Origin: an uncultured Acidobacteriota bacterium
GTDB lineage: Bacteria; Acidobacteriota; Thermoanaerobaculia; UBA5066; DATFVB01
Assembly (NCBI GenBank): GCA_963813155.1
Contig: CAWEYG010000003.1
Span: forward strand, 128,001-192,000
DNA: 64,000 nucleotides
Direction of reading: 5' to 3'
Shown here: piece after piece, positions 13,473 to 57,945 of the stretch
Position numbering within the stretch: position 1 is the stretch's first letter
How the letters are laid out: each line of letters begins with the position of its first letter
Made by a program: the position numbers and the translations under genes
The notes under the pieces: generated by a model
What the model was told of the DNA's origin: nothing
What the model saw: only the letters and a program-made list of their open reading frames with translations
The model's database searches: none

Positions 13473-13689
13473 ATGTCCCCTTTTCGCGGGTCGCGCGATG
13501 TGCAGGGGAGAGGGGTATGATTTTCGAACAAATGCCCATCGATGTCGCCCGCCTAACGCGGATCGTCTTAGGCCGACGATTCGGTTGCCAGGTTGTTGGC
13601 TCTTGGAGAGTGGGAGGCCGTTTTGTTCCGCCTATCGCGACAGACCCGCTTCCGCCTAATCACATGCTGGGCGTTTCAGCGAGCATTTC

Positions 13690-14061
13690 GTGAACGACGC
13701 CGTTCTCGAAATGTCCTTGGTACTCGTTGTGTCGGTCGCTGCCTACTTAGGTTGGGTCGCCTGTCGGTCAGAGCGTCCCGTCTGGACTGCTCGCAGTGTC
13801 GTCCTATCGTTGCTGACCGTAATCAATGTCCTGTGCGCGGCAGTGTCATTCCTGGGAATCTATGCTCTGGCGAACTTTGCAGCTGGCCTCAAAGCGTCGT
13901 GGTCAGATTGTCTCGTCGGTGGTAGCGTTCTGGCCGTCGTAGCTACCGTACTCGCCCTTCGAAGGCCGCGGCGTGACCTAATCGTGGCCCTAAACGGGGC
14001 GTTGATCGGGCTCTTCGGTCTAGCGTGGCTGATTCTGATCGCAACGTCGGTCCGCAGATGA
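13690..14061 (+). CDS. Cassette-like small membrane protein
   Basis: Four hydrophobic segments, lower GC, followed by an attC-like site. Confidence 0.7.
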   Translation: MNDAVLEMSLVLVVSVAAYLGWVACRSERPVWTARSVVLSLLTVINVLCAAVSFLGIYALANFAAGLKASWSDCLVGGSVLAVVATVLALRRPRRDLIVALNGALIGLFGLAWLILIATSVRR

Positions 14062-14080
14062 GCGAGCAGAGGGTCGAAAC

Positions 14081-14156
14081 GCCCAACATGTCGCGGCAGC
14101 GGACTTCAGCCCGCCGCGTTGCGCCGGGCTTCGCCGCTGAGCTCAAGGCGTTACCT
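14081..14156 (+). repeat. attC-like site
   Basis: GCCCAAC..GCAGCGGAC..hairpin..GCCGCTGAGC..GTTACCT. Confidence 0.8.
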
Positions 14157-14172
14157 GTGCGAGGAGCGTGAG

Positions 14173-14646
14173 TTGTTGCGGCAGAGTTGGAAGCTTCGTT
14201 GGTGGCCCCTACTCTGGTCGATCGCGATGGCCTTCTGTACGACGGTTCTCGGGGTAGGCCTCTGGATGGCAGCGTTGGGGCCCGTTGGCCGTGTTCACGG
14301 CGCGCTCATGTTCGTCACCCTACCATTCGTCACCCTTGGGTTTGCGGTAGGTGAGCTGCCGTCCAGGTCGGCCCTCGGGTCCGGAATCCTTCTAATCGGC
14401 GGGTTCGTTTTCTGGGCCGGCACTTCGTATGCCATTCTTCACTTGGCCAGCGGCCCGGTTAAGAGTGAAAGTGCGCACAGCCAACATCGGTATCTGGACT
14501 CCTCCTGCAAGAGGGCGAAGCGCGGGCTCGGGAAGAGGGTTCGACGGGTTGTGAAGAGCGCAGTTGGTGAGTCGAGGATGTCAGGTCGAGACAGCGATCG
14601 TATCTACGGCCTCTTTGTGGAGTCGCGTTGGCGCTCCGGGCCATGA
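14173..14646 (+). CDS. Cassette-like membrane protein (3' end now reads into the IS)
   Basis: GAGGAG RBS plus TTG just after attC; three hydrophobic segments ending before 14480. Confidence 0.55.
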   Translation: MLRQSWKLRWWPLLWSIAMAFCTTVLGVGLWMAALGPVGRVHGALMFVTLPFVTLGFAVGELPSRSALGSGILLIGGFVFWAGTSYAILHLASGPVKSESAHSQHRYLDSSCKRAKRGLGKRVRRVVKSAVGESRMSGRDSDRIYGLFVESRWRSGP

Positions 14647-14760
14647 TGGGAGCCGCACACGGGGAGCCAATCATTGACAGCGGCTTCTGAGAGCCACCGA
14701 TGTTGTCGGCTTGTCCCCGTGTCGGTCCGACCGAAACCATCATCGAGATCTGATGCGCGT
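14590..14760 (-). ncRNA. Predicted bridge/seek RNA of the IS1111 element (boundaries approximate)
   Basis: Two stem/internal-loop/hairpin modules whose loops match the target flanks and the IS ends. Confidence 0.75.
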
Positions 14761-14785
14761 TCACAGGAAGGTCGTGGTCCTTTCC

Positions 14786-15820
14786 TTAATTGCAGGGGCT
14801 CAGGCTTCGGGGTTCGTAGACAGTGTTTCGTGACCAGACGGCCCAGGCGACGCGAGCGAGCTTGTTGGCAAGGGCGGTGGCGGTGCGGTTGTGACCGCGG
14901 CGTTTCTCGACTTCGAGGGCCCAGGACTGGATGCGATCGGGGTTTTTGGAGCGTTTGGCGGCGAGAAGGACGGATCGCGCTCCGTGGATGAGAAGAGTTC
15001 GCAGGTAGGAGTCGCCGCGTTTGGTAATGGCGCCCAGATGGCGATTGTTACCGCTGGAGAACTCTTTGGGGACCAGGCCGAGGAAGCAAGAGAGCCGCCG
15101 GCTCGAGCGGAAGCGGGAGGCCGAGCCGACAAAACCGAGCAAGGCGGTGGAAGTCAGGAGCCCGATGCCGGGGATCGATTGAAGGCTTTTCGCTGCGTCA
15201 ATGTCCTTCGAGATCACCGCGAGCCGGCGATCCCCCATCCGAATGTTTTCCGTAAGCTTTCGGACCTCGTCGCAGAAGGCCAGAAGGATCGGATGAAGGT
15301 CTTTGGGTATGGCATCGGAGGCCAGCGCCTCGGAGACGGCGGGCAGGACGTATCGAGATCCCTGCGGGATGGTGACGCCGAGCTCGCGCAGGATGCCGCG
15401 CAGGATATTCAACCGAGCCGTGCGTGTGGTGATCCACGCGGAGCGCGAAGAGTGGAGAGCGGTCAGGACATGCTGGCCCACTGTTTTGACCGGCACGGGG
15501 AGGATCTGGTTGTTGCGCCCGGCTTCCAGCAAAGCATCGGCGTCGGCACGGTCGGTCTTGTTGCCGAGGCGATAACGGCGGACGTGGTGAGGAGGAAGAA
15601 GCACGACCTCATGGCCGAGGCCCTGGATCTCTCTTGCCCAGTGGTGTGCCGATCCGCAGGCTTCCATCAGAACCTTAGCCGAGGGTTGGTTAGAGAAGAA
15701 AGAGATCATCTGGCTTCTGGTCAGCCGGCGTCTCTGGCAGACGCGCCCCGGTTGCTTCGAGACGGCGATTTCGAAGACGGACTTCGCAAGATCAACGGCA
15801 ATGGTCGTAGAATCACTCAC
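14786..15820 (-). CDS. IS110-family recombinase/transposase
   Basis: DEDD RuvC-like residues (AVDLAK, MEAC, KTDRADA); IPGIG, GLVPKEFSSG, LIHGARS, ALANKLAR. Confidence 0.97.
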   Translation of the reverse strand: MSDSTTIAVDLAKSVFEIAVSKQPGRVCQRRRLTRSQMISFFSNQPSAKVLMEACGSAHHWAREIQGLGHEVVLLPPHHVRRYRLGNKTDRADADALLEAGRNNQILPVPVKTVGQHVLTALHSSRSAWITTRTARLNILRGILRELGVTIPQGSRYVLPAVSEALASDAIPKDLHPILLAFCDEVRKLTENIRMGDRRLAVISKDIDAAKSLQSIPGIGLLTSTALLGFVGSASRFRSSRRLSCFLGLVPKEFSSGNNRHLGAITKRGDSYLRTLLIHGARSVLLAAKRSKNPDRIQSWALEVEKRRGHNRTATALANKLARVAWAVWSRNTVYEPRSLSPCN

Positions 15821-15976
15821 GGACTTCTCCTTTCATGAAGCTGACCGATCAACCCGGAACAGCCTGGCACAACGATGCCGCACCATGCGGGGAGGAGTCC
15901 ATCTCATCATTGCAGCGGGCGGCGGGCCTGCGGATTGCCGTAGCTAAAGCCGGGTCGTCGAGCACCTGAGCAAGAG

Positions 15977-16714
15977 ATGTCAGTTCGTCAGTGGCTCTCT
16001 CGAATACCCCGAAGCGCACGGATTGGCGCGGGCGTGACATGTGCAATTGTTCTTCTGCCGCTTGGGGCATTTCTCATGTACGCGGGGTTGGCTATTGGCA
16101 ATGATTTGGCAGACAGGGGGCGATCAACGGGAATTCTCGGAATGCAGGAGCTCTGGCCGTTCCTCGGCCTCACACTCTATGCCCTCGTGATCGTCGCGAC
16201 GCCGGTGTCTGTCGGCGGCCTGATCGGCTGGGGGATCGATCGAGCGTTCAAGGCCGCGCGAGGCAGGGAGACGCGTAAGCAGAAACGTGGCCGGTGTCCG
16301 GTGTGCGCCCACGAATTTGACTATTACCTCGTGCATGACGGCTTCAGCGACACGGCACACGCATACTGCGATCGCTGTGGCGCGACGGCCCTTCTGGATA
16401 TGTGGTTCCCACGCATTCCACCCGCCGCGGATCTAAGGGTTCACCAAGCCATCTCAAAGGCGGTCGAGCCATGGCTGTCGCCGTGCCAGTGCGGAGGCAC
16501 CTTTCGCGCTGACGCCTCTCCTCGGTGTCCAACGTGTGGCGCACCGTTGGGGGCCGAAGAATGCAGAGGTTTTATCGAGCGCAATGCCGAAGGAACAAAG
16601 AAGGGGTGGCGGTGGCAGGGCAAATGGGTGGCAACCTACGCGATCGTCGTGGCGAACCGTGTCGTCTATGACAATTGGATTACCGAGAGCGTGGCACATG
16701 GCTCGAAGGCATAA
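15977..16714 (+). CDS. Cassette-like hypothetical protein: TM N-terminus plus Cys-rich (several CxxC) C-terminus
   Basis: TAA stop lies inside the R'' box of the next attC. Confidence 0.7.
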   Translation: MSVRQWLSRIPRSARIGAGVTCAIVLLPLGAFLMYAGLAIGNDLADRGRSTGILGMQELWPFLGLTLYALVIVATPVSVGGLIGWGIDRAFKAARGRETRKQKRGRCPVCAHEFDYYLVHDGFSDTAHAYCDRCGATALLDMWFPRIPPAADLRVHQAISKAVEPWLSPCQCGGTFRADASPRCPTCGAPLGAEECRGFIERNAEGTKKGWRWQGKWVATYAIVVANRVVYDNWITESVAHGSKA

Positions 16715-16769
16715 CACCGGCGTGCAGCGGGTTTCGCTACGCTCGCCGCTGATGCGCAAGTCGTTAGGC
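16709..16769 (+). repeat. attC-like site (61 bp, near-canonical)
   Basis: GCATAAC..GCAGCGG..GCCGCTGA..GTTAGGC. Confidence 0.88.
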
Positions 16770-16809
16770 AGTCAACGCAGGTCCAAACAGCTGAAAAGGA
16801 GTGCGCCCC

Positions 16810-17187
16810 ATGAAGCATAACGATCTCTTGAGTTTGACGTCGATACTCTCCGTGCTTCTGCTTGCCCTGCATATTTCGCAGGACATCGTCTTCGGGTTCG
16901 ACCGCGCAGGGCTCAATCATCTTGTCGGCGTTGCGATCTTGGTCGTCGTTGTCTGCGGCGCCGTGCTGCTCCGAGAACGGCGATTGGGCAAGGTGATCAT
17001 GCTGCTTGGCGGCGTGATGGCCGTCGGGATGCTGCCTCTGCACATGCGGAATGGATTGCGCCCGGAGTTTCTCGAGAAGAGCGGCGCCCTGCTGTTCATC
17101 TGGACGCTCTATGTCCTCGGAGTCATCGGCGCGTTCTCGATTATCCTGGCGATCCAGGCGTTGTTCGCTCGGCGGATCGCTTCGTGA
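16810..17187 (+). CDS. Cassette-like 4-TM membrane protein
   Basis: AAAGGAG RBS; hydrophobic ORF between two attC-like sites. Confidence 0.8.
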   Translation: MKHNDLLSLTSILSVLLLALHISQDIVFGFDRAGLNHLVGVAILVVVVCGAVLLRERRLGKVIMLLGGVMAVGMLPLHMRNGLRPEFLEKSGALLFIWTLYVLGVIGAFSIILAIQALFARRIAS

Positions 17188-54263: not shown

Positions 54264-55934
54264 CTATCGGTGAAGGCGGAAATTCACGGTTACGGTCAAG
54301 TACACGGCGACCGGATTCCCGTTGAGCTCAGCTGGTCGGTAGGTCCACTGGGAAATCGCGTTCATCGCCGCGGCATCCAAAGCGAGTGCGGAGCTTTTGA
54401 TGATGTGCAAGTCTTTGACGCACCCCACCCTGCTGATGACCGCCTCAATGATCGTAATGCCCTCCAGATGCGCCTGCCGTGCGCCAATCGGATAATCCGG
54501 CTCGACCCGTCCGGAAATCGTCGGTGGTTTGATTCCTCCCCGTATCCTCACCGTTTCGCCCCTTGACGTGATTGGCCGCGATTCCTCGTCGCACGAAAAG
54601 AATCCGCTCTGCAACGAGGTTTCGATGGTCAACGGATCGTCGATCGTGGTCGGTTCGTTCGCTGGGGCAAGGGACAACAAATATAGGCTCTTGAATGCGT
54701 CGAAGCAGGCGACCTTGATCGGGTCACCGACGAGCATCGTGATCGTGGCCGGTCGCCCATCGGGCCGGTATCCGACCTTAGCAAGCCCTGCGACATCGCA
54801 GGAAGCCACTTTGCGGAGATCTATCCCCAGGCCATGCGGCAAGTCTTGCGCCATCCACATTTTCGGCTGGGTGAGAAACGCCGGTTCGGTGCTTGCGTGT
54901 GGCTTGGAAGGTTCTTTCATGTGCTCGAGGAGGCTTGATTGCAGCTCCGGCGGCGCATTCTTCACATTTCGCTCGTCGATCGCGGAACGCTCGCCTTCGG
55001 TCAGATACCGTCGAAGAGGGCTCAAGTCGAGGTCGCTGTCGAGGTGACAGTGTTCATTGGTGCGAAGGCAGGCGATCCAATCCTTGTTCTCGACGGCAGG
55101 CTGGCCGAGAACCCGGCGCAGTAGTTCCTGACCGAACGCCACTTCCGGGTCGGCCGAGGCATCGTGCGTGGAAGTCTCCGCGTTCTTGAGGATCGCGAGG
55201 AGCTGGCTCCCATCGGGGGGAGGTTGGTCGCAATACTCTCTCGCCAGATACCAGGCGGTCTCGCTGCGGAGGGCGGGAGCCTCGGAGCCGAGCGCGGTCC
55301 TCACCACGGGCGAAGATGCAAGCGCGGGGTCATGTCGAGCGTCGGACAGGATCGCCCTCCACGAAGTGAGATCGTTGCGACCAAGGGCCATCGAGGCGGC
55401 CCCGAGAAGGCTGTCCTGTCCTCGAGTGGCGATGCGGAAAAAGGCCGCGCGATCTCCATCCAGGAGGTGCAATTTGTCGAGCTTGTCGAAATACATCGGC
55501 AACGCCGCGAGCCCCCGCGCACGGGCAAGCGCGAGCACGAGGTCGGCGTCTATGGCGCCGCCGAATCGCGAAGCCGCCTCGAGAACGAAAGAATCCTTGT
55601 TTCCAGGCCCAACGAGGATGATCGCCCGGATCTCTTCACGGGCGGCGGTGACGGCTGTTTCTTTCGCGAGTGCGGATTCCACGTCTGGAATGAGAGCGGA
55701 AACACCGCACGTCGTAACGGCTCGCGCCGCAACGCCGCGCACGTCGGGATTGGAATCTGCAAGCGCCGCCCTCCAGCGAGCAACTACCTGGGGGTCCTTG
55801 GAGTAAGGAGCCAGGAGCGCGATCGAGGCTGGCGAAACGGGCTTCCTCAGCAGAGATGACAGCCCGTCGGCAAAGGCGACCGGGGCGAGGCTCAACGAGC
55901 AAAGGAATAGAGCTCCGAGAATGGATGGCGCCAA
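54264..55934 (-). CDS. TonB C-terminal domain protein with HEAT-like N-terminus
   Basis: VEPDYP..ARQAHLEG..AAMNAISQWTYRPA..GNPV; TTG start inside the attC R' box (the ORF track extends it to 56018). Confidence 0.85.
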   Translation of the reverse strand: MAPSILGALFLCSLSLAPVAFADGLSSLLRKPVSPASIALLAPYSKDPQVVARWRAALADSNPDVRGVAARAVTTCGVSALIPDVESALAKETAVTAAREEIRAIILVGPGNKDSFVLEAASRFGGAIDADLVLALARARGLAALPMYFDKLDKLHLLDGDRAAFFRIATRGQDSLLGAASMALGRNDLTSWRAILSDARHDPALASSPVVRTALGSEAPALRSETAWYLAREYCDQPPPDGSQLLAILKNAETSTHDASADPEVAFGQELLRRVLGQPAVENKDWIACLRTNEHCHLDSDLDLSPLRRYLTEGERSAIDERNVKNAPPELQSSLLEHMKEPSKPHASTEPAFLTQPKMWMAQDLPHGLGIDLRKVASCDVAGLAKVGYRPDGRPATITMLVGDPIKVACFDAFKSLYLLSLAPANEPTTIDDPLTIETSLQSGFFSCDEESRPITSRGETVRIRGGIKPPTISGRVEPDYPIGARQAHLEGITIIEAVISRVGCVKDLHIIKSSALALDAAAMNAISQWTYRPAELNGNPVAVYLTVTVNFRLHR

Positions 55935-55992
55935 CGACCCGGCTTCAGCGGCAAGGCCGCAGGCCGAAGTCCGCTGCAAGCCGATGATGGGT
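55929..55992 (-). repeat. attC-like site
   Basis: Minus strand ACCCATCATCGGCTTGCAGCGGACTTCGGCCTGCGGCCTTGCCGCTGAAGCCGGGTCGTTGGCG. Confidence 0.85.
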
Positions 55993-56002
55993 GCGAAGCT
56001 TG

Positions 56003-56371
56003 TCATAGGTGCTTCCACTCTTCGACGACTACTTGGAACGGGTCTTCATAAAGGACTTCCCCCGGGTTCTTTGACCGCAGAAGTCTCACGGGAACACCAT
56101 GATCTTTGAGGAGTGATGTGAGTTCCCAGAGCCTCCGGATCGGCTCTCCCGCTCCATCCTTGAGCCATGCCACCGCCTCTTTCGTCCAGCCGCTGCTCTT
56201 GAAAGGCGGGCAAGGAAGGTTTGCGTCGAGCCATTCGTATGTTTCTTCGAGACGATCGGCCTGATAACGGTCCAGCTCTCCACGGTCCCGAAGGAGGCGC
56301 GCCTCCGCGACGATGCCCGTGAGCCCCCAATGGTGCTCGTGGTCATGGCCGACTACAAACCGCACGAACAT
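56003..56371 (-). CDS. Cassette hypothetical protein
   Basis: ORF fills the space between two attC-like sites; PGEVLYEDPFQVV. Confidence 0.8.
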   Translation of the reverse strand: MFVRFVVGHDHEHHWGLTGIVAEARLLRDRGELDRYQADRLEETYEWLDANLPCPPFKSSGWTKEAVAWLKDGAGEPIRRLWELTSLLKDHGVPVRLLRSKNPGEVLYEDPFQVVVEEWKHL

Positions 56372-56377
56372 CTTTGA

Positions 56378-56437
56378 GCACCGGACGCGGCGTCAGCGGT
56401 GGCGCGAAGCGACATCCGCTGGACGCCAGTGTCGAGC
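56378..56437 (-). repeat. Degenerate attC-like site
   Basis: GGCGTCAGCGGTGGCGC..GACATCCGCTGGACGCC palindrome. Confidence 0.7.
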
Positions 56438-56440
56438 GAC

Positions 56441-56812
56441 TCAGCCCGATGGTGCTGCAAGATATATCCTCACAGTTCGGCCGTTAGCGAATGTTATGGT
56501 GAAGCCATTCTCGATCTCGCACGAGCATTCCGTAGCGTATCGCCACTCGTTCGTCCCGGTACCATTTTCTGGCGGACCGAGATTCTCAAGAACTTCCATC
56601 CTGGTGGACCCGAGGTGGAGAGCGCCCCAGTTGCCGAACCCTTCGCGCGGGTTGAAGTAGGCCCTAATAGCCTTTTTCTGCTCCCTTGGCGAAAGCTCTG
56701 GATCTACGCCGGTAGAAAGGGTGAGATCCCCAACGACGTTGTCCGTGTAGCACTTTGCGTGAAGCTTAGAGGCCCGTTGCCAGCCGATGTTAACCGTTCT
56801 CACGGTTGACAC
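56441..56812 (-). CDS. Cassette hypothetical protein (BamE/SmpA-like motif)
   Basis: LGSTRMEVLENLGPP..WRY. Confidence 0.6.
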   Translation of the reverse strand: MSTVRTVNIGWQRASKLHAKCYTDNVVGDLTLSTGVDPELSPREQKKAIRAYFNPREGFGNWGALHLGSTRMEVLENLGPPENGTGTNEWRYATECSCEIENGFTITFANGRTVRIYLAAPSG

Positions 56813-57200
56813 CTTTCGAAAGCAACGAGAAGGTTATGGCGGCAAAGACTCCAGCCAGCAGAGCTCGGCCGGCCGCCTCGCCGACCTTTCCCGGCCAAGG
56901 TGCACCGCTGTAGTGAACGTCAGTCAGAAAGAACACTCCGGTTATTACCGCCAAGCCGATGACCCATGCGAGACGAGGCGGACGGCGGATCAGGAACGCG
57001 ATGCCGCCCCCCGTGATTGAACCGGCAACAATCCACTGCAGGGCGAATAAAGTTGGAAACGCCCAGGGCTCGCGGCGCACCAGACTGCTCCCCAGAGCGA
57101 CGCTGACAACCCCGACGGCGAGACCTGATAGCCAGAATGCGACGTAAGCGATTCCAACGACCGCGGCAGCATCGGCAATATTCTGGCGATCGTCAATCAT
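56790..57200 (-). CDS. Cassette membrane protein
   Basis: Four TM segments; ATG 9 bp after attC R'. Confidence 0.75.
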   Translation of the reverse strand: MIDDRQNIADAAAVVGIAYVAFWLSGLAVGVVSVALGSSLVRREPWAFPTLFALQWIVAGSITGGGIAFLIRRPPRLAWVIGLAVITGVFFLTDVHYSGAPWPGKVGEAAGRALLAGVFAAITFSLLSKGVNRENG

Positions 57201-57208
57201 TTTGAGCC

Positions 57209-57273
57209 ACCCAACGCCCCGCCCCCAGCGGCAAGGCTGCAGGCCGAAGTCCGCTGCACGCCGATGGTCGGGT
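57209..57273 (-). repeat. attC-like site
   Basis: Minus strand ACCCGAC..GCAGCGGACTTCGGCCTGC..GTTGGGT with complementary ends. Confidence 0.85.
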
Positions 57274-57281
57274 GGCGTGGG

Positions 57282-57536
57282 TTAGCTTTCGTCATCGCGC
57301 GCCTTGAGGTCTCTGATGCCACCCTTGACATTCCACACCCATACCGCAAGGAGAATGGGGATACCGATGGCTAGGAAGAGTCCCCCTGTCACATTGGCTC
57401 CCGTGCGGAGGGCTTTCACCACGCCCGAGAGTACTAAGAGCCAGACTCCGGAAAATACGAGGAAGAAGAAAACCGAACCTATCACCCGCGCCCTCGCCAA
57501 TCGTCGCCGAGTGTGGACCGGCCAACCCTTGATCAT
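57282..57536 (-). CDS. Cassette small 2-TM protein
   Basis: Hydrophobic ORF between attC-like sites. Confidence 0.7.
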   Translation of the reverse strand: MIKGWPVHTRRRLARARVIGSVFFFLVFSGVWLLVLSGVVKALRTGANVTGGLFLAIGIPILLAVWVWNVKGGIRDLKARDDES

Positions 57537-57874
57537 GCGCTCACCGCTGCCCGACACCCGAACGACCCGGCTTCAGCGGCAAGGCCGCGGGGCGCCTGCC
57601 ATGCCGAGGCCTCAACCCCAAAGTCGGCCCGAGCCTGTTCAAGCGCATCCTCGAGCGAAGAATGCCACGAGTCGTTCATGGAGGTTCCATCTTCTCTTGA
57701 CCACTCCAAGATGAAACCGCCGTCTTCCTGAAGAATCCTCAGGTTCAGGCGGTCTACCTGAGATGGAGTGGCTGGAGGGGCCGCTGCATTAGGCGGTAGC
57801 CAACCATGAGCCTGCGCGCCGCCAGAGCGAACCACGCAGCCGAGAGCTTCCTTGATGAGAATGCTGTTACCCAC
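57533..57874 (-). CDS. Cassette hypothetical protein reading through a half attC (57557-57589)
   Basis: DSWHSSLEDALEQARADFGV; the GLAAEAGS tail is attC-encoded. Confidence 0.7.
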   Translation of the reverse strand: MGNSILIKEALGCVVRSGGAQAHGWLPPNAAAPPATPSQVDRLNLRILQEDGGFILEWSREDGTSMNDSWHSSLEDALEQARADFGVEASAWQAPRGLAAEAGSFGCRAAVSA

Positions 57875-57878
57875 GGCC

Positions 57879-57945
57879 CTCTAACGCCCCGGCTTCAGCG
57901 GCGGCCGGCCGCAGGCGCGACATCCGCTGCACGCCGATGTTAGAA
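57879..57945 (-). repeat. attC-like site (near-canonical)
   Basis: Minus strand TTCTAAC (contains the RDD stop) ... GTTAGAG. Confidence 0.9.

What the first reader, a model, noticed from the sequence alone, without database searches (positions are those of the whole stretch)
14492..15909. IS1111-type RNA-guided recombinase with a directly readable guide RNA aimed at this genome's attC family
Seen: an intact DEDD/Ser transposase, 11-bp sub-terminal IRs and a ~295-bp downstream non-coding region. That region holds the stem ACACGGGGA (14657-14665)/TCCCCGTGT (14714-14722) around an internal loop and a small hairpin (14682-14695). On the transposase strand, one loop arm reads CAACATCGGT (14696-14705), identical to the left flank at 14482-14491. 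The other reads CCGCTG(T)CAATGA (14671-14683), complementary to the right junction TCATTGCAGCGG apart from one extra base. Known: IS110/IS1111 elements use bridge/seek RNAs, and an attC-targeting IS1111 subgroup exists in Proteobacteria. Inferred: this is a new natural guide/target pair in a probable Acidobacteriota host. Related motifs (AACATCGGCGTGCAGCGG at ~57924-57941, ATCATCGGCTTGCAGCGG at ~55971-55988, both minus strand) are further candidate targets.
Basis: partly seen in the sequence, partly recalled or inferred. Interest (0 to 1): 0.85.

Follow-up and report, generated by a model that had tools for sequence, protein, structure and literature searches.

The report
RNA-guided IS inserted in attC
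A small mobile element of the IS1111 type sits inside an integron recombination site (attC) of a soil Acidobacteriota genome and carries a guide RNA whose two loop arms spell that site; it is a distant new relative of attC-seeking elements that have already been studied, not a new kind of system.

Summary
Window 14492-15909 is an intact IS1111-group element. It has a 344-aa DEDD/Ser transposase on the minus strand, 11-bp sub-terminal inverted repeats and a 294-nt non-coding region downstream of the gene.

That region holds a stem / inner stem / internal loop / hairpin. The 5' loop arm equals the 10 bases left of the element. The 3' arm matches the right junction apart from one extra U.

The flanks are the two halves of a true attC site. 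The genome has an integron integrase with a cassette array, and 11 exact copies of the target motif, all inside attC arrays.

All 5 known copies with this guide (1 here, 4 in a same-family Acidobacteriota genome) sit at the same attC position. Across 18 guide types both arms track their own flanks (0 of 20,000 permutations). The RNA fold is supported by compensatory changes.

The nearest named relatives are ISPa25, ISPa21 and ISKpn4 (47-48% identity). These are the known IS1111-attC group, which inserts at the same place and in the same orientation and whose seekRNA has been shown experimentally.

No RNA data were available.

The parts
14492..15909 (-). Whole IS1111-group insertion sequence (1418 bp). 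The right edge 15909|15910 is firm. The left edge is uncertain by up to 2 nt (14490-14492).
   Evidence: Homology with 4 copies in G404 ends at these junctions. A metagenome contig matches from 15910 onward and is preceded by an uninterrupted attC left half. Another contig's related copy starts matching at 14490 (table 7). Among copies of one related element, the two bases after CCAGAT vary.
14786..15820 (-). Transposase gene, 344 aa, DEDD (RuvC-like) N-terminal domain plus PF02371 C-terminal domain with Ser-Gly motif.
   Evidence: D10, E53, D90, D93, G248, P251, S255 and G257 are conserved in 58-61 of 61 aligned relatives.
15891..15901 (.). Sub-terminal inverted repeat at the transposase-proximal (left, in IS orientation) end.
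   Evidence: I6. The same word is found in 10 of 15 metagenome relatives examined.
14495..14505 (.). Sub-terminal inverted repeat at the right (non-coding-region) end.
   Evidence: I6.
14588..14745 (-). Conserved RNA region (long seekRNA / bridge-RNA-like). It comprises closing helix P0 (about 14740-14744 with 14645-14649), the target-binding stem-loop, a second stem-loop (P4/P5) and a 3' segment.
   Evidence: 151 of 156 aligned positions are identical to the G404 copy, against 81.0% for the transposase gene and 42% for the distal non-coding region. In the 7-helix model 94.6% of cells are paired against 34-46% in slid controls, and 15 of 37 pairs show compensatory change.
14657..14722 (-). Target-binding stem-loop (the short-seekRNA equivalent). 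Outer stem 14657-14665/14714-14722; inner stem 14666-14670/14706-14710; internal loop; apical hairpin 14682-14695.
   Evidence: 66 of 66 positions are identical to the G404 copy. It aligns column for column with the corresponding non-coding regions of ISKpn4, ISPa25 and ISPa21.
14696..14705 (-). 5' guide arm. The RNA reads CAACAUCGGU, identical to the plus-strand flank 14482-14491 (the R''-plus-spacer side of the attC).
   Evidence: I8. Own-flank score 10 of 10.
14671..14681 (-). 3' guide arm. The RNA reads GCUGUCAAUGA. It pairs with the plus strand at the right junction (L'' side of the attC plus the first 3 nt of the IS end), with one bulged U.
   Evidence: The same layout, including the extra U, is seen in the 53-66% identity relatives.
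14597..14605 (-). Second RNA segment AGAUACGAU. It equals the right IS terminus plus the adjoining base(s) (DNA 14490-14497 region).
   Evidence: It varies together with the terminus: AGATAC in most, AGATAT in L033, ATATG in ISKpn4, ATATAC in ISPa25/ISPa21. Its function is inferred.
14478..14491 (+). Left half of the interrupted attC (R'' box CCAAC plus spacer).
   Evidence: Compare the intact sites listed.
15910..15966 (+). Right half of the interrupted attC (L'' TTGCAGCGG, loop, degenerate L', and an R'-like GTCGAG).
14082..14154 (+). Intact attC upstream; it bounds the cassette whose 3' attC received the IS.
16712..16768 (+). Intact attC after the next cassette ORF (15977-16714).
55932..57942 (-). 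Cluster of at least 4 attC sites on the other strand (55935-55989, 56383-56434, 57212-57269, 57882-57942). Several match both guide arms and are candidate targets.

Best explanation
This is an intact IS1111-group insertion sequence that targets integron attC sites through an RNA guide it encodes.

**The RNA.** The 3' non-coding region is read as a structured RNA (inferred; no RNA data). Its core is an outer stem, a 5-bp inner stem, an internal loop and an apical hairpin.

**The two arms.** The 5' arm has the sequence of one DNA strand on the R''/spacer side of the insertion point, so it pairs with the opposite strand. The 3' arm pairs with the other strand on the L'' side. The transposase-RNA complex thus reads both strands of the attC, between the R''-plus-spacer segment and L''.

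**Recombination.** The DEDD/Ser recombinase would then join a circular IS intermediate into that point without a target duplication (mechanism by analogy with ISKpn4/ISEc11 and IS621, not shown here). Both arms run 1-3 nt into the IS termini. This fits the published finding that the flanks of the donor copy must also match the seekRNA.

**Second segment.** A further RNA segment copies the right IS terminus and may help recognise the donor end.

**Lineage.** The element belongs to a large, mostly soil and Acidobacteriota clade. That clade is sister to the gammaproteobacterial IS1111-attC group. Its guide arms have diverged to fit the attC sequence type of the host's own integron.
For: **Family features.**

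**The guide matches the flanks.** (I8, I13).

**The flanks are attC halves.**
- The motif is enriched in the window: 7 matches against 1.05 expected.
- The sites have the R''/L''/L'/R' layout and fold accordingly.
- Integron integrase matches (TIGR02249: 237.7 and 209.8 bits, in two frames) lie at C3:295169-296117 and are directly followed by an attC array.
- All 11 exact AACATCGG-Y-K-TGCAGCGG sites in the genome lie in attC arrays.

**Same site every time.** 5 of 5 copies with this guide are at the same attC position.

**Selection on the RNA.** Stem-loop 66 of 66 and RNA region 151 of 156 identical, against 81% for the gene.

**Fold.** 94.6% of cells paired against 34-46% when slid; 15 of 37 pairs with compensatory change against 2-6 when slid.

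**Guide-flank covariation** over 18 distinct guide types:
- 5' arm: mean 6.61 against a permuted mean of 4.78 (sd 0.27).
- 3' arm: mean 5.11 against 4.00 (sd 0.23).
- 0 of 20,000 permutations reached either value.

**Natural retargeting.** A multi-copy relative has arm UAGCAGCC and 10 of 10 printed copies next to xxCTGCTxG (GGGCTGCTAG in 6). L034/L035 have arm GACUGAGCC next to GACCGAGCC.

**Relatives.**
- The closest named relatives are ISPa25 (46.8%), ISPa21 (47.9%) and ISKpn4 (47.3%).
- They show the same insertion point and orientation, and an alignable non-coding region.
- They share a clade with the window element at SH-aLRT 100.

**Published experiments.** These show that ISKpn4/ISPst6 seekRNAs co-purify with the transposase and carry the attC matches, and that an 82-nt seekRNA suffices (PMC11187229; passages and sections 6 and 10 read).
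Against: - No RNA or transposition data exist for this element.
- No sigma-70-like promoter was found in 14400-16000, so the RNA's 5' end and its processing are unknown.
- The element is single-copy in this genome despite 11 matching targets.
- The right-arm match is not significant on its own. It needs a bulged U.
- In the 53-58% identity relatives the last 3 nt of the 5' arm (UUU) and 1-2 positions of the 3' arm do not match their flanks.
- The permutation test treats related elements as independent, which overstates it.
- Rfam 15 gave no match, so the RNA assignment rests on my own alignment.
- The exact crossover point is unresolved (plus or minus 2 nt), because no empty site was found.
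Confidence: 0.9

Rival explanations
1. The element is an immobile fossil here. It inserted once, and the transposase/RNA pair no longer moves in this genome.
For: - There is one copy in 3.8 Mb although 11 exact target motifs are available.
- The interrupted attC has a degenerate L' and an R'-like box reading GTC instead of GTT. This could mean an old insertion.
- The integron integrase is itself split over two frames.
Against: - The ORF is open, and all conserved catalytic positions are present.
- Both sub-terminal repeats are perfect.
- The guide stem-loop is 66 of 66 identical to copies in another genus that has 4 copies.
- The genome is a 23-contig assembly at 90.8% completeness, so repeated copies may be unassembled.
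Confidence: 0.2
2. The loop/flank identity is not a guide. It would be a captured piece of attC (or chance), and the site would be chosen by protein recognition of the folded attC or of the sub-terminal repeats.
For: - A 10-nt word shared with a 30-nt flank arises in about 1% of shuffles, and the right-hand word is not significant.
- attC sites are structured, and other elements are known to recognise them.
Against: - The matching bases sit in the two arms of a loop whose closing helices show compensatory changes.
- The arms change together with the flanks in 18 guide types, including non-attC targets.
- The homologous RNA of ISKpn4/ISEc11 has been shown to be required and reprogrammable (PMC11187229).
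Confidence: 0.03
3. The repeats are a generic REP-like palindrome family rather than integron attC sites, so the element would be a REP-targeting IS like ISPa11.
For: - The clusters inside the window have no integrase next to them (one search found none in C3:128001-192000).
- Fold z-scores of single sites are weak (z from +0.08 to -2.25).
Against: - The same repeat forms an array of at least 17 sites immediately after an integron-integrase gene.
- The sites follow cassette-sized ORFs and carry AAC...GTT outer boxes and inner L''/L' helices.
- The relatives ISKpn4 and ISPa25 sit at the equivalent point of class 1 integron cassettes.
Confidence: 0.03

Closest known systems
IS1111-attC group: ISKpn4, ISPst6, ISPa21, ISPa25 (Gammaproteobacteria; seekRNA shown by Siddiquee et al. 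2024, PMC11187229)
   Same: - Same transposase type, 47-48% identical, in one clade at SH-aLRT 100.
- Same insertion point, between the R''-plus-spacer segment and L'' of an attC. The transposase gene runs opposite to the cassettes.
- The 3' non-coding region aligns, with the same stem / inner stem (GCCGA...UUGGC) / two-arm loop / hairpin.
- The order of the two matches is the same.
   Different: - A different phylum and habitat (soil Acidobacteriota, chromosomal cassette cluster without integrase).
- The window element falls in a sister clade, not within the named group.
- Both arms are rewritten for another attC sequence type: CAACAUCGGU / GCUG(U)CAA against UAACAAUC / UUGAAC.
- The 3' arm carries a bulged U that the named elements lack.
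- Nothing has been tested experimentally.
IS621 / IS110-group bridge RNA (Durrant et al. 2024, PMC11208160)
   Same: - A DEDD/Ser recombinase.
- A structured non-coding RNA with an internal loop whose two arms read opposite strands of the target.
- A further segment matching the donor end.
   Different: - The RNA lies in the right end, after the gene, not in the left end.
- Long sub-terminal repeats.
- The donor-matching bases are not in a simple second internal loop. They lie next to a multi-helix junction, as that paper notes for many IS1111 members (passages read).
- No defined core dinucleotide could be read here.
ISPa11 / ISPpu9 (IS1111-group elements that target REP palindromes)
   Same: The same family, and the same habit of parasitising a repeated, foldable extragenic site through a downstream small RNA (PMC11187229 passages; PMC12288879 abstract in the listing).
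   Different: The target here is an integron recombination site, not a REP.
Group IIC-attC introns
   Same: Another class of mobile element that specifically inserts into attC sites (PMC3001079, abstract seen in the listing).
   Different: An unrelated mechanism (retrohoming ribozyme plus reverse transcriptase). No sequence relation was tested.

Membership tests
IS110 family, IS1111 group | N-terminal DEDD (RuvC-like) transposase domain | tested here: met
   PF01548 E 6.2e-11. NF033542 at 278.3 bits against a cut-off of 140. D10, E53, D90 and D93 conserved in 58-61 of 61 relatives.
IS110 family, IS1111 group | C-terminal PF02371 domain with a GL-P----S/T-G motif; protein of 330-350 aa | tested here: met
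   PF02371 E 1.9e-22. GLVPKEFSSG at residues 248-257. 344 aa. The criteria are those stated in PMC11187229, section 6.
IS110 family, IS1111 group | Sub-terminal inverted repeats of 7-17 bp | tested here: met
   11 bp, 100% complementary, starting 3 and 8 bp inside the ends (I6).
IS110 family, IS1111 group | The longer non-coding region lies downstream of the transposase gene | tested here: met
   294 nt downstream (14492-14785) against 89 nt upstream (15821-15909).
IS110 family, IS1111 group | Moves through a circular intermediate; no target duplication | not testable with these tools
   No direct repeat is visible at the junctions. The only sequencing runs available were contigs and showed no circle junction.
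IS1111-attC group | Inserted in attC sites at one fixed position and in one orientation | tested here: met
   5 of 5 copies with this guide. The point and orientation are the same as ISKpn4 and ISPa25 in class 1 cassettes. By my reading of the printed folds, 14 of 19 reconstructed sites of relatives look like attC.
IS1111-attC group | Transposase groups with ISKpn4 / ISPst6 / ISPa21 / ISPa25 | tested here: inconclusive
   They are the best named hits, at 47-48% identity. They share a clade of 37 rows at SH-aLRT 100, but the window element is in the sister branch of 34 rows (support 84). The tree is quick, midpoint-rooted, and built from a query-biased sample. ISKpn4 and ISPa25 are themselves only 46% identical (PMC11187229).
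seekRNA / bridge RNA | [quoted passage not shown] | tested here: met
seekRNA / bridge RNA | Guide segments change with the target across relatives | tested here: met
   18 guide types; 0 of 20,000 permutations reached the observed value for either arm. Further retargeted examples.
seekRNA / bridge RNA | Conserved secondary structure supported by covariation | tested here: met
seekRNA / bridge RNA | The RNA is made, binds the transposase, and is needed for movement | not testable with these tools
Integron attC site | Imperfect palindrome with R''/L''...L'/R' boxes at the 3' end of cassettes, in arrays next to an integron integrase | tested here: met
   The clusters inside the window lack an integrase. 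The integrase-linked array is about 150 kb away on the same contig.

The most novel reading that the evidence does not exclude
attC parasitism by RNA-guided IS1111 elements may be old and cross-phylum. One clade unites the clinical gammaproteobacterial IS1111-attC elements with a very abundant soil and Acidobacteriota lineage. In that lineage the guide arms co-diversify with the attC sequence type of each host's integron, and they occasionally jump to non-attC repeats.

The long RNA would be a true two-site bridge RNA. Its 3' segment, set beside a pseudoknot-like junction, would read the right IS terminus.

Such elements, by disabling single attC sites, could help to break cassette arrays into integrase-less clusters like the two in this window.
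Probability: 0.45. Interest if true: 0.5.

Novelty: new member of a known kind. Interest (0 to 1): 0.35.

Why it matters
**A new guide/target pair.** It adds a natural, directly readable pair to the small set known for IS1111-type RNA-guided recombinases. The guide and its 11 genomic targets lie in one genome.

**A wider range for attC-seeking elements.** It shows that the attC-seeking habit, so far described in Gammaproteobacteria, extends to a large environmental lineage:
- 17 of 400 sampled genomes of the phylum have a relative.
- 6,876 of the 8,000 candidate 90%-identity protein clusters scored had E <= 1e-60.

**For integron biology.** It points to a widespread agent that inactivates single attC sites in chromosomal arrays.

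**For recombinase engineering.** The clade offers many natural arm variants on one conserved scaffold.

It does not change the known mechanism.

Tried and rejected
- **Rfam 15** scan of 13500-17000 at E <= 1: no match. The RNA is not covered by a curated family.
- **Promoter scan** of 14400-16000: no sigma-70-like site. Nothing can be said on how the RNA is made.
- **Empty site.** The cassette left of the IS (14100-14491) was searched in 40 relatives. Only its first 53 nt (the upstream attC) matched, in 2-3 genomes. No uninterrupted allele was found, so the crossover point stays uncertain by 2 nt.
- **Core dinucleotide.** I tried to read a duplicated core (AT, T or GT) at the two junctions. 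None was consistent across the relatives, so I dropped the idea.
- **Donor-binding arm.** I first read the strand CUCCCAUCA as a donor-binding arm. Covariation shows instead that it pairs with an upstream strand (helix P0), so I rejected that reading.
- **Sequencing runs.** No RNA holder is listed. Four soil-metagenome DNA runs were laid as contigs. They gave two informative loose ends (15910, 14490) but no joint across the IS and no circle junction. Parts without cover say nothing.
- **Papers.** Tetu & Holmes 2008 (PMC2447020) is not held; what I say of it is recalled. Post & Hall 2009 was seen only as a reference entry. Supplementary figures of PMC11187229, which show the ISKpn4/ISPst6/ISPa25 seekRNA folds, could not be seen. 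They may already show features I describe, such as the inner stem or the terminus-matching segment.
- **Is it in print?** The only search bearing on an Acidobacteriota IS1111-attC element is (attC + IS110 + Acidobacteri). It returned 1 paper, a soil survey, which I did not open.
Full report
**1. What is there**

Window 14492-15909 is a compact insertion sequence.

- The only long ORF with a family match is 14786-15820 on the minus strand, 344 aa.
- It has the two Pfam domains of IS110-family transposases: PF01548 at E 6.2e-11 and PF02371 at E 1.9e-22.
- It scores 278.3 bits against NCBIfam NF033542, 'IS110 family RNA-guided transposase', whose cut-off is 140.
- In an alignment of 61 relatives, D10, E53, D90 and D93 (the DEDD tetrad) and the G248-P251-S255/S256-G257 motif are conserved in 58-61 rows.
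- Perfect 11-bp inverted repeats lie just inside the ends, at 14495-14505 and 15891-15901.
- The long non-coding region (294 nt) is downstream of the gene.

These are the features that PMC11187229 (section 6) and PMC11208160 (passages) use to separate the IS1111 group from the IS110 group.

**2.

On the transposase strand the non-coding region contains these parts:

- an outer stem, 14714-14722 with 14657-14665;
- a 5-bp inner stem (GCCGA with UUGGC);
- an internal loop;
- an apical hairpin, 14682-14695.

These are seen.

The 5' arm of the loop reads CAACAUCGGU. It is identical to the plus-strand flank 14482-14491, which ends at the junction (I8). The 3' arm reads GCUGUCAAUGA. It is complementary to the plus strand at the other junction, apart from one extra U. 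Its last three bases fall on the first three bases of the IS end rather than on flank.

Taken alone these matches are modest evidence. A 10-nt word shared with a 30-nt flank arose in 47 of 5000 shuffles, and the 7-nt exact word on the right in 3329 of 5000.

**3. The flanks are an attC site**

The two flanks are the R''-plus-spacer half and the L''-to-R' half of a repeat that recurs in the window. The 16-nt motif has 7 matches at up to 2 mismatches against 1.05 expected.

- Each intact copy sits just after a cassette-sized ORF.
- Each has an outer AAC...GTT pair of boxes and an inner GCAGCGG...CCGCTG pair.
- Each folds accordingly.

In the whole genome the integron-integrase model TIGR02249 matches C3:295169-296117. 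The match is split over two frames (237.7 and 209.8 bits, each below the 265-bit cut-off). An array of at least 17 such sites starts about 600 bp downstream. Further integrase-less clusters lie at C3:583-588 kb and in the window.

The exact word AACATCGG-Y-K-TGCAGCGG occurs 11 times in 3.8 Mb, always inside these arrays. The repeat family is therefore attC, and the guide fits many sites of this genome.

The element itself is present once.

**4. Other copies**

A MAG titled Acidobacteriota (OY970224.1) carries 4 copies whose transposase is 84-85% identical. That genome is handle G404. It is placed in the same family as the window's genome, which supports the Acidobacteriota assignment.

All 4 copies lie in different attC sites at the same position. 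With the window copy that makes 5 of 5. In two of them the flank is one base shorter.

Conservation between the window copy and a G404 copy:

| Region | Identity |
|---|---|
| Transposase gene | 81.0% |
| Guide stem-loop | 66 of 66 |
| RNA region 14589-14745 | 151 of 156 |
| Rest of the non-coding region | 42% |

This is the pattern expected of a selected RNA.

**5. Wider relatives and covariation**

The sources of relatives were as follows.

- A metagenome scan gave 52 loci.
- A sample of 400 genomes of the same phylum gave 17 genomes with relatives at E <= 1e-80, 46-58% identical.
- The protein search scored 6,876 of 8,000 candidates at E <= 1e-60. The best 120 were 60-100% identical, came almost all from metagenomes and carried only generic names.

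I extracted the two arms and both flanks for 32 element copies. I dropped 8 copies with less than 16 nt of one flank and 6 copies with a guide pair already seen. That left 18 distinct guide types:

| Arm | Mean own-flank score | Permuted mean (sd) | Permutations reaching it |
|---|---|---|---|
| 5' arm | 6.61 | 4.78 (0.27) | 0 of 20,000 |
| 3' arm | 5.11 | 4.00 (0.23) | 0 of 20,000 |

Related elements share both guide and target, so this overstates independence. Even so, the examples are clear:

- L078/L088: arm UAACAACCGU beside TAACAACCGT.
- L029: 9 of 10 positions match.
- L034/L035: retargeted to GACCGAGCC.
- A multi-copy element in three genomes: arm UAGCAGCC, with all 10 printed copies beside xxCTGCTxG (GGGCTGCTAG in 6 of them).

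There are also results against a perfect fit. In the 53-58% identity group the last three bases of the 5' arm (UUU) do not match, and the 3' arm has 1-2 mismatches.

I restored 19 sites by leaving the element out. By my reading of the printed folds, 14 look like attC sites and 5 do not.

**6. RNA fold**

I aligned 15 sequences over 182 columns: the window, G404, 10 environmental relatives, ISKpn4, ISPa25 and ISPa21.

RNAalifold recovers the outer stem, the inner stem and the hairpin, with 11 of 29 pairs compensated.

My seven-helix model adds a closing helix P0, a second stem-loop (P4/P5) and a weak helix P6 that crosses P0. Its scores:

| Measure | Model | Slid controls |
|---|---|---|
| Cells paired | 94.6% | 34-46% |
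| Pairs with changes on both sides | 15 of 37 | 2-6 |

P6 shows only one-sided changes, so it is not established.

After P4 the RNA reads AGAUACGAU, which is the sequence of the right IS terminus. This segment and the terminus vary together: AGATAC in most, AGATAT in L033, ATATG in ISKpn4, ATATAC in ISPa25/ISPa21. PMC11208160 already notes that many IS1111 bridge RNAs carry donor-matching bases in a multi-loop. I read this segment as that feature. Its function is inferred.

**7. Relation to what is known**

The best named matches in the plasmid collection are ISPa25 (46.8%), ISPa21 (47.9%) and ISKpn4 (47.3%).

- In the records I fetched, ISKpn4 and ISPa25 lie between the AAC-plus-spacer segment and the next inverted-repeat box of a class 1 cassette attC.
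- Their gene runs opposite to the cassettes, exactly as here.
- Their non-coding regions align with this one. Their arms read UAACAAUC... and UUGAAC..., which fit their own attC type.

A quick maximum-likelihood tree used 58 rows, after dropping 3 rows shorter than 320 aa. It was built with LG+G4 and midpoint-rooted, and the sample is biased to sequences sharing words with the query. It puts these three together with all the acidobacterial and soil relatives in one clade (SH-aLRT 100). The window element falls in the 34-row sister branch.

PMC11187229 reports the following:

- ISKpn4 and ISPst6 seekRNAs co-purify with their transposases and contain the attC matches.
- ISPa25, only 46% identical, has the same matches.
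- For ISEc11 an 82-nt seekRNA suffices for movement, and redirecting it to new targets required matching changes in the (long, 154-nt) seekRNA and in the donor flanks.

The arms here run 1-3 nt into the IS ends. That agrees with the RNA also reading the junctions of the donor copy.

**8. Boundaries**

A soil-metagenome contig matches the window from 15910 onward. It is preceded by an uninterrupted AACATCGGC, which fixes the right edge at 15909|15910 (table 7).

On the left, a related copy in another run starts to match at 14490. Most relatives have AC after CCAGAT. Yet copies of one multi-copy element vary at those two bases. The left edge is therefore 14490-14492.

Compared with intact sites, one base next to the element differs: T here against C in the consensus. 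I could not identify a duplicated core.

**9. Verdict**

The element works like ISKpn4, and is most probably an early-branching relative of it. It is an RNA-guided IS1111 element that seeks attC sites, here with arms written for the attC type of an Acidobacteriota integron.

That is a new member of a known kind. The extension to another phylum, the natural series of arm variants and the terminus-matching segment give it moderate interest.

Noticed in passing
own genome G000:C3:295169-303960 (outside the window; loci L019, L020): An integron whose integrase match (TIGR02249) is split over two reading frames near profile position 186-192. It lies on the same strand as the attC array of at least 17 sites that follows it. 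This is either a frameshifted gene or an assembly error, and the orientation is unusual.
   Followed up: partly
window 55932-57942 (minus strand) and window 14082-16768 (plus strand): Two clusters of attC sites with small unannotated cassette ORFs and no integrase within the window. They lie in opposite orientations.
   Followed up: partly
window 15940-15964: The right half of the interrupted attC has a degenerate inner repeat, and its last box reads GTC where the other sites read GTT. This would fit decay after the site was disabled.
   Followed up: no
loci L082, L084, L085, L096, L097, L100-L102, L104, L105 (genomes G309, G385, G393): A 55%-identical relative is present in 4-5 copies per genome. 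Its 5' arm reads UAGCAGCC, and every printed copy lies beside xxCTGCTxG (GGGCTGCTAG in 6 of 10), a target that is not an attC. The two bases next to its right end differ between copies (AC, AT, CT).
   Followed up: partly
loci L034, L035 (metagenome contigs): Another relative (53-54% identical) has both arms rewritten (GACUGAGCCU / GAUGCUGUCGA). It sits beside GACCGAGCC. The inner stem is changed in a compensated way (CCCGA with UUGGG).
   Followed up: partly
window 14677 (the extra base in the 3' arm) and the same column in L025-L049, L029, L088: The single unpaired U three to four bases from the insertion point is kept in the window clade and in the 53-66% identity relatives. It is absent from ISKpn4, ISPa25, ISPa21 and L103.
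   Followed up: no
window 14490-14495 and 14600-14605: The word GTATCT occurs both at the right terminus of the element and inside the conserved RNA region, as a direct repeat. The two copies change together in relatives.
   Followed up: partly
window 14119-14491: The cassette ORF to the left runs into the attC. The insertion replaces its last roughly 13 codons.
   Followed up: no
locus L044, about 2240-2320: A 66%-identical relative on a metagenome contig has no recognisable guide stem-loop or right end. A tRNA-like sequence follows it. It is possibly a truncated copy.
   Followed up: no
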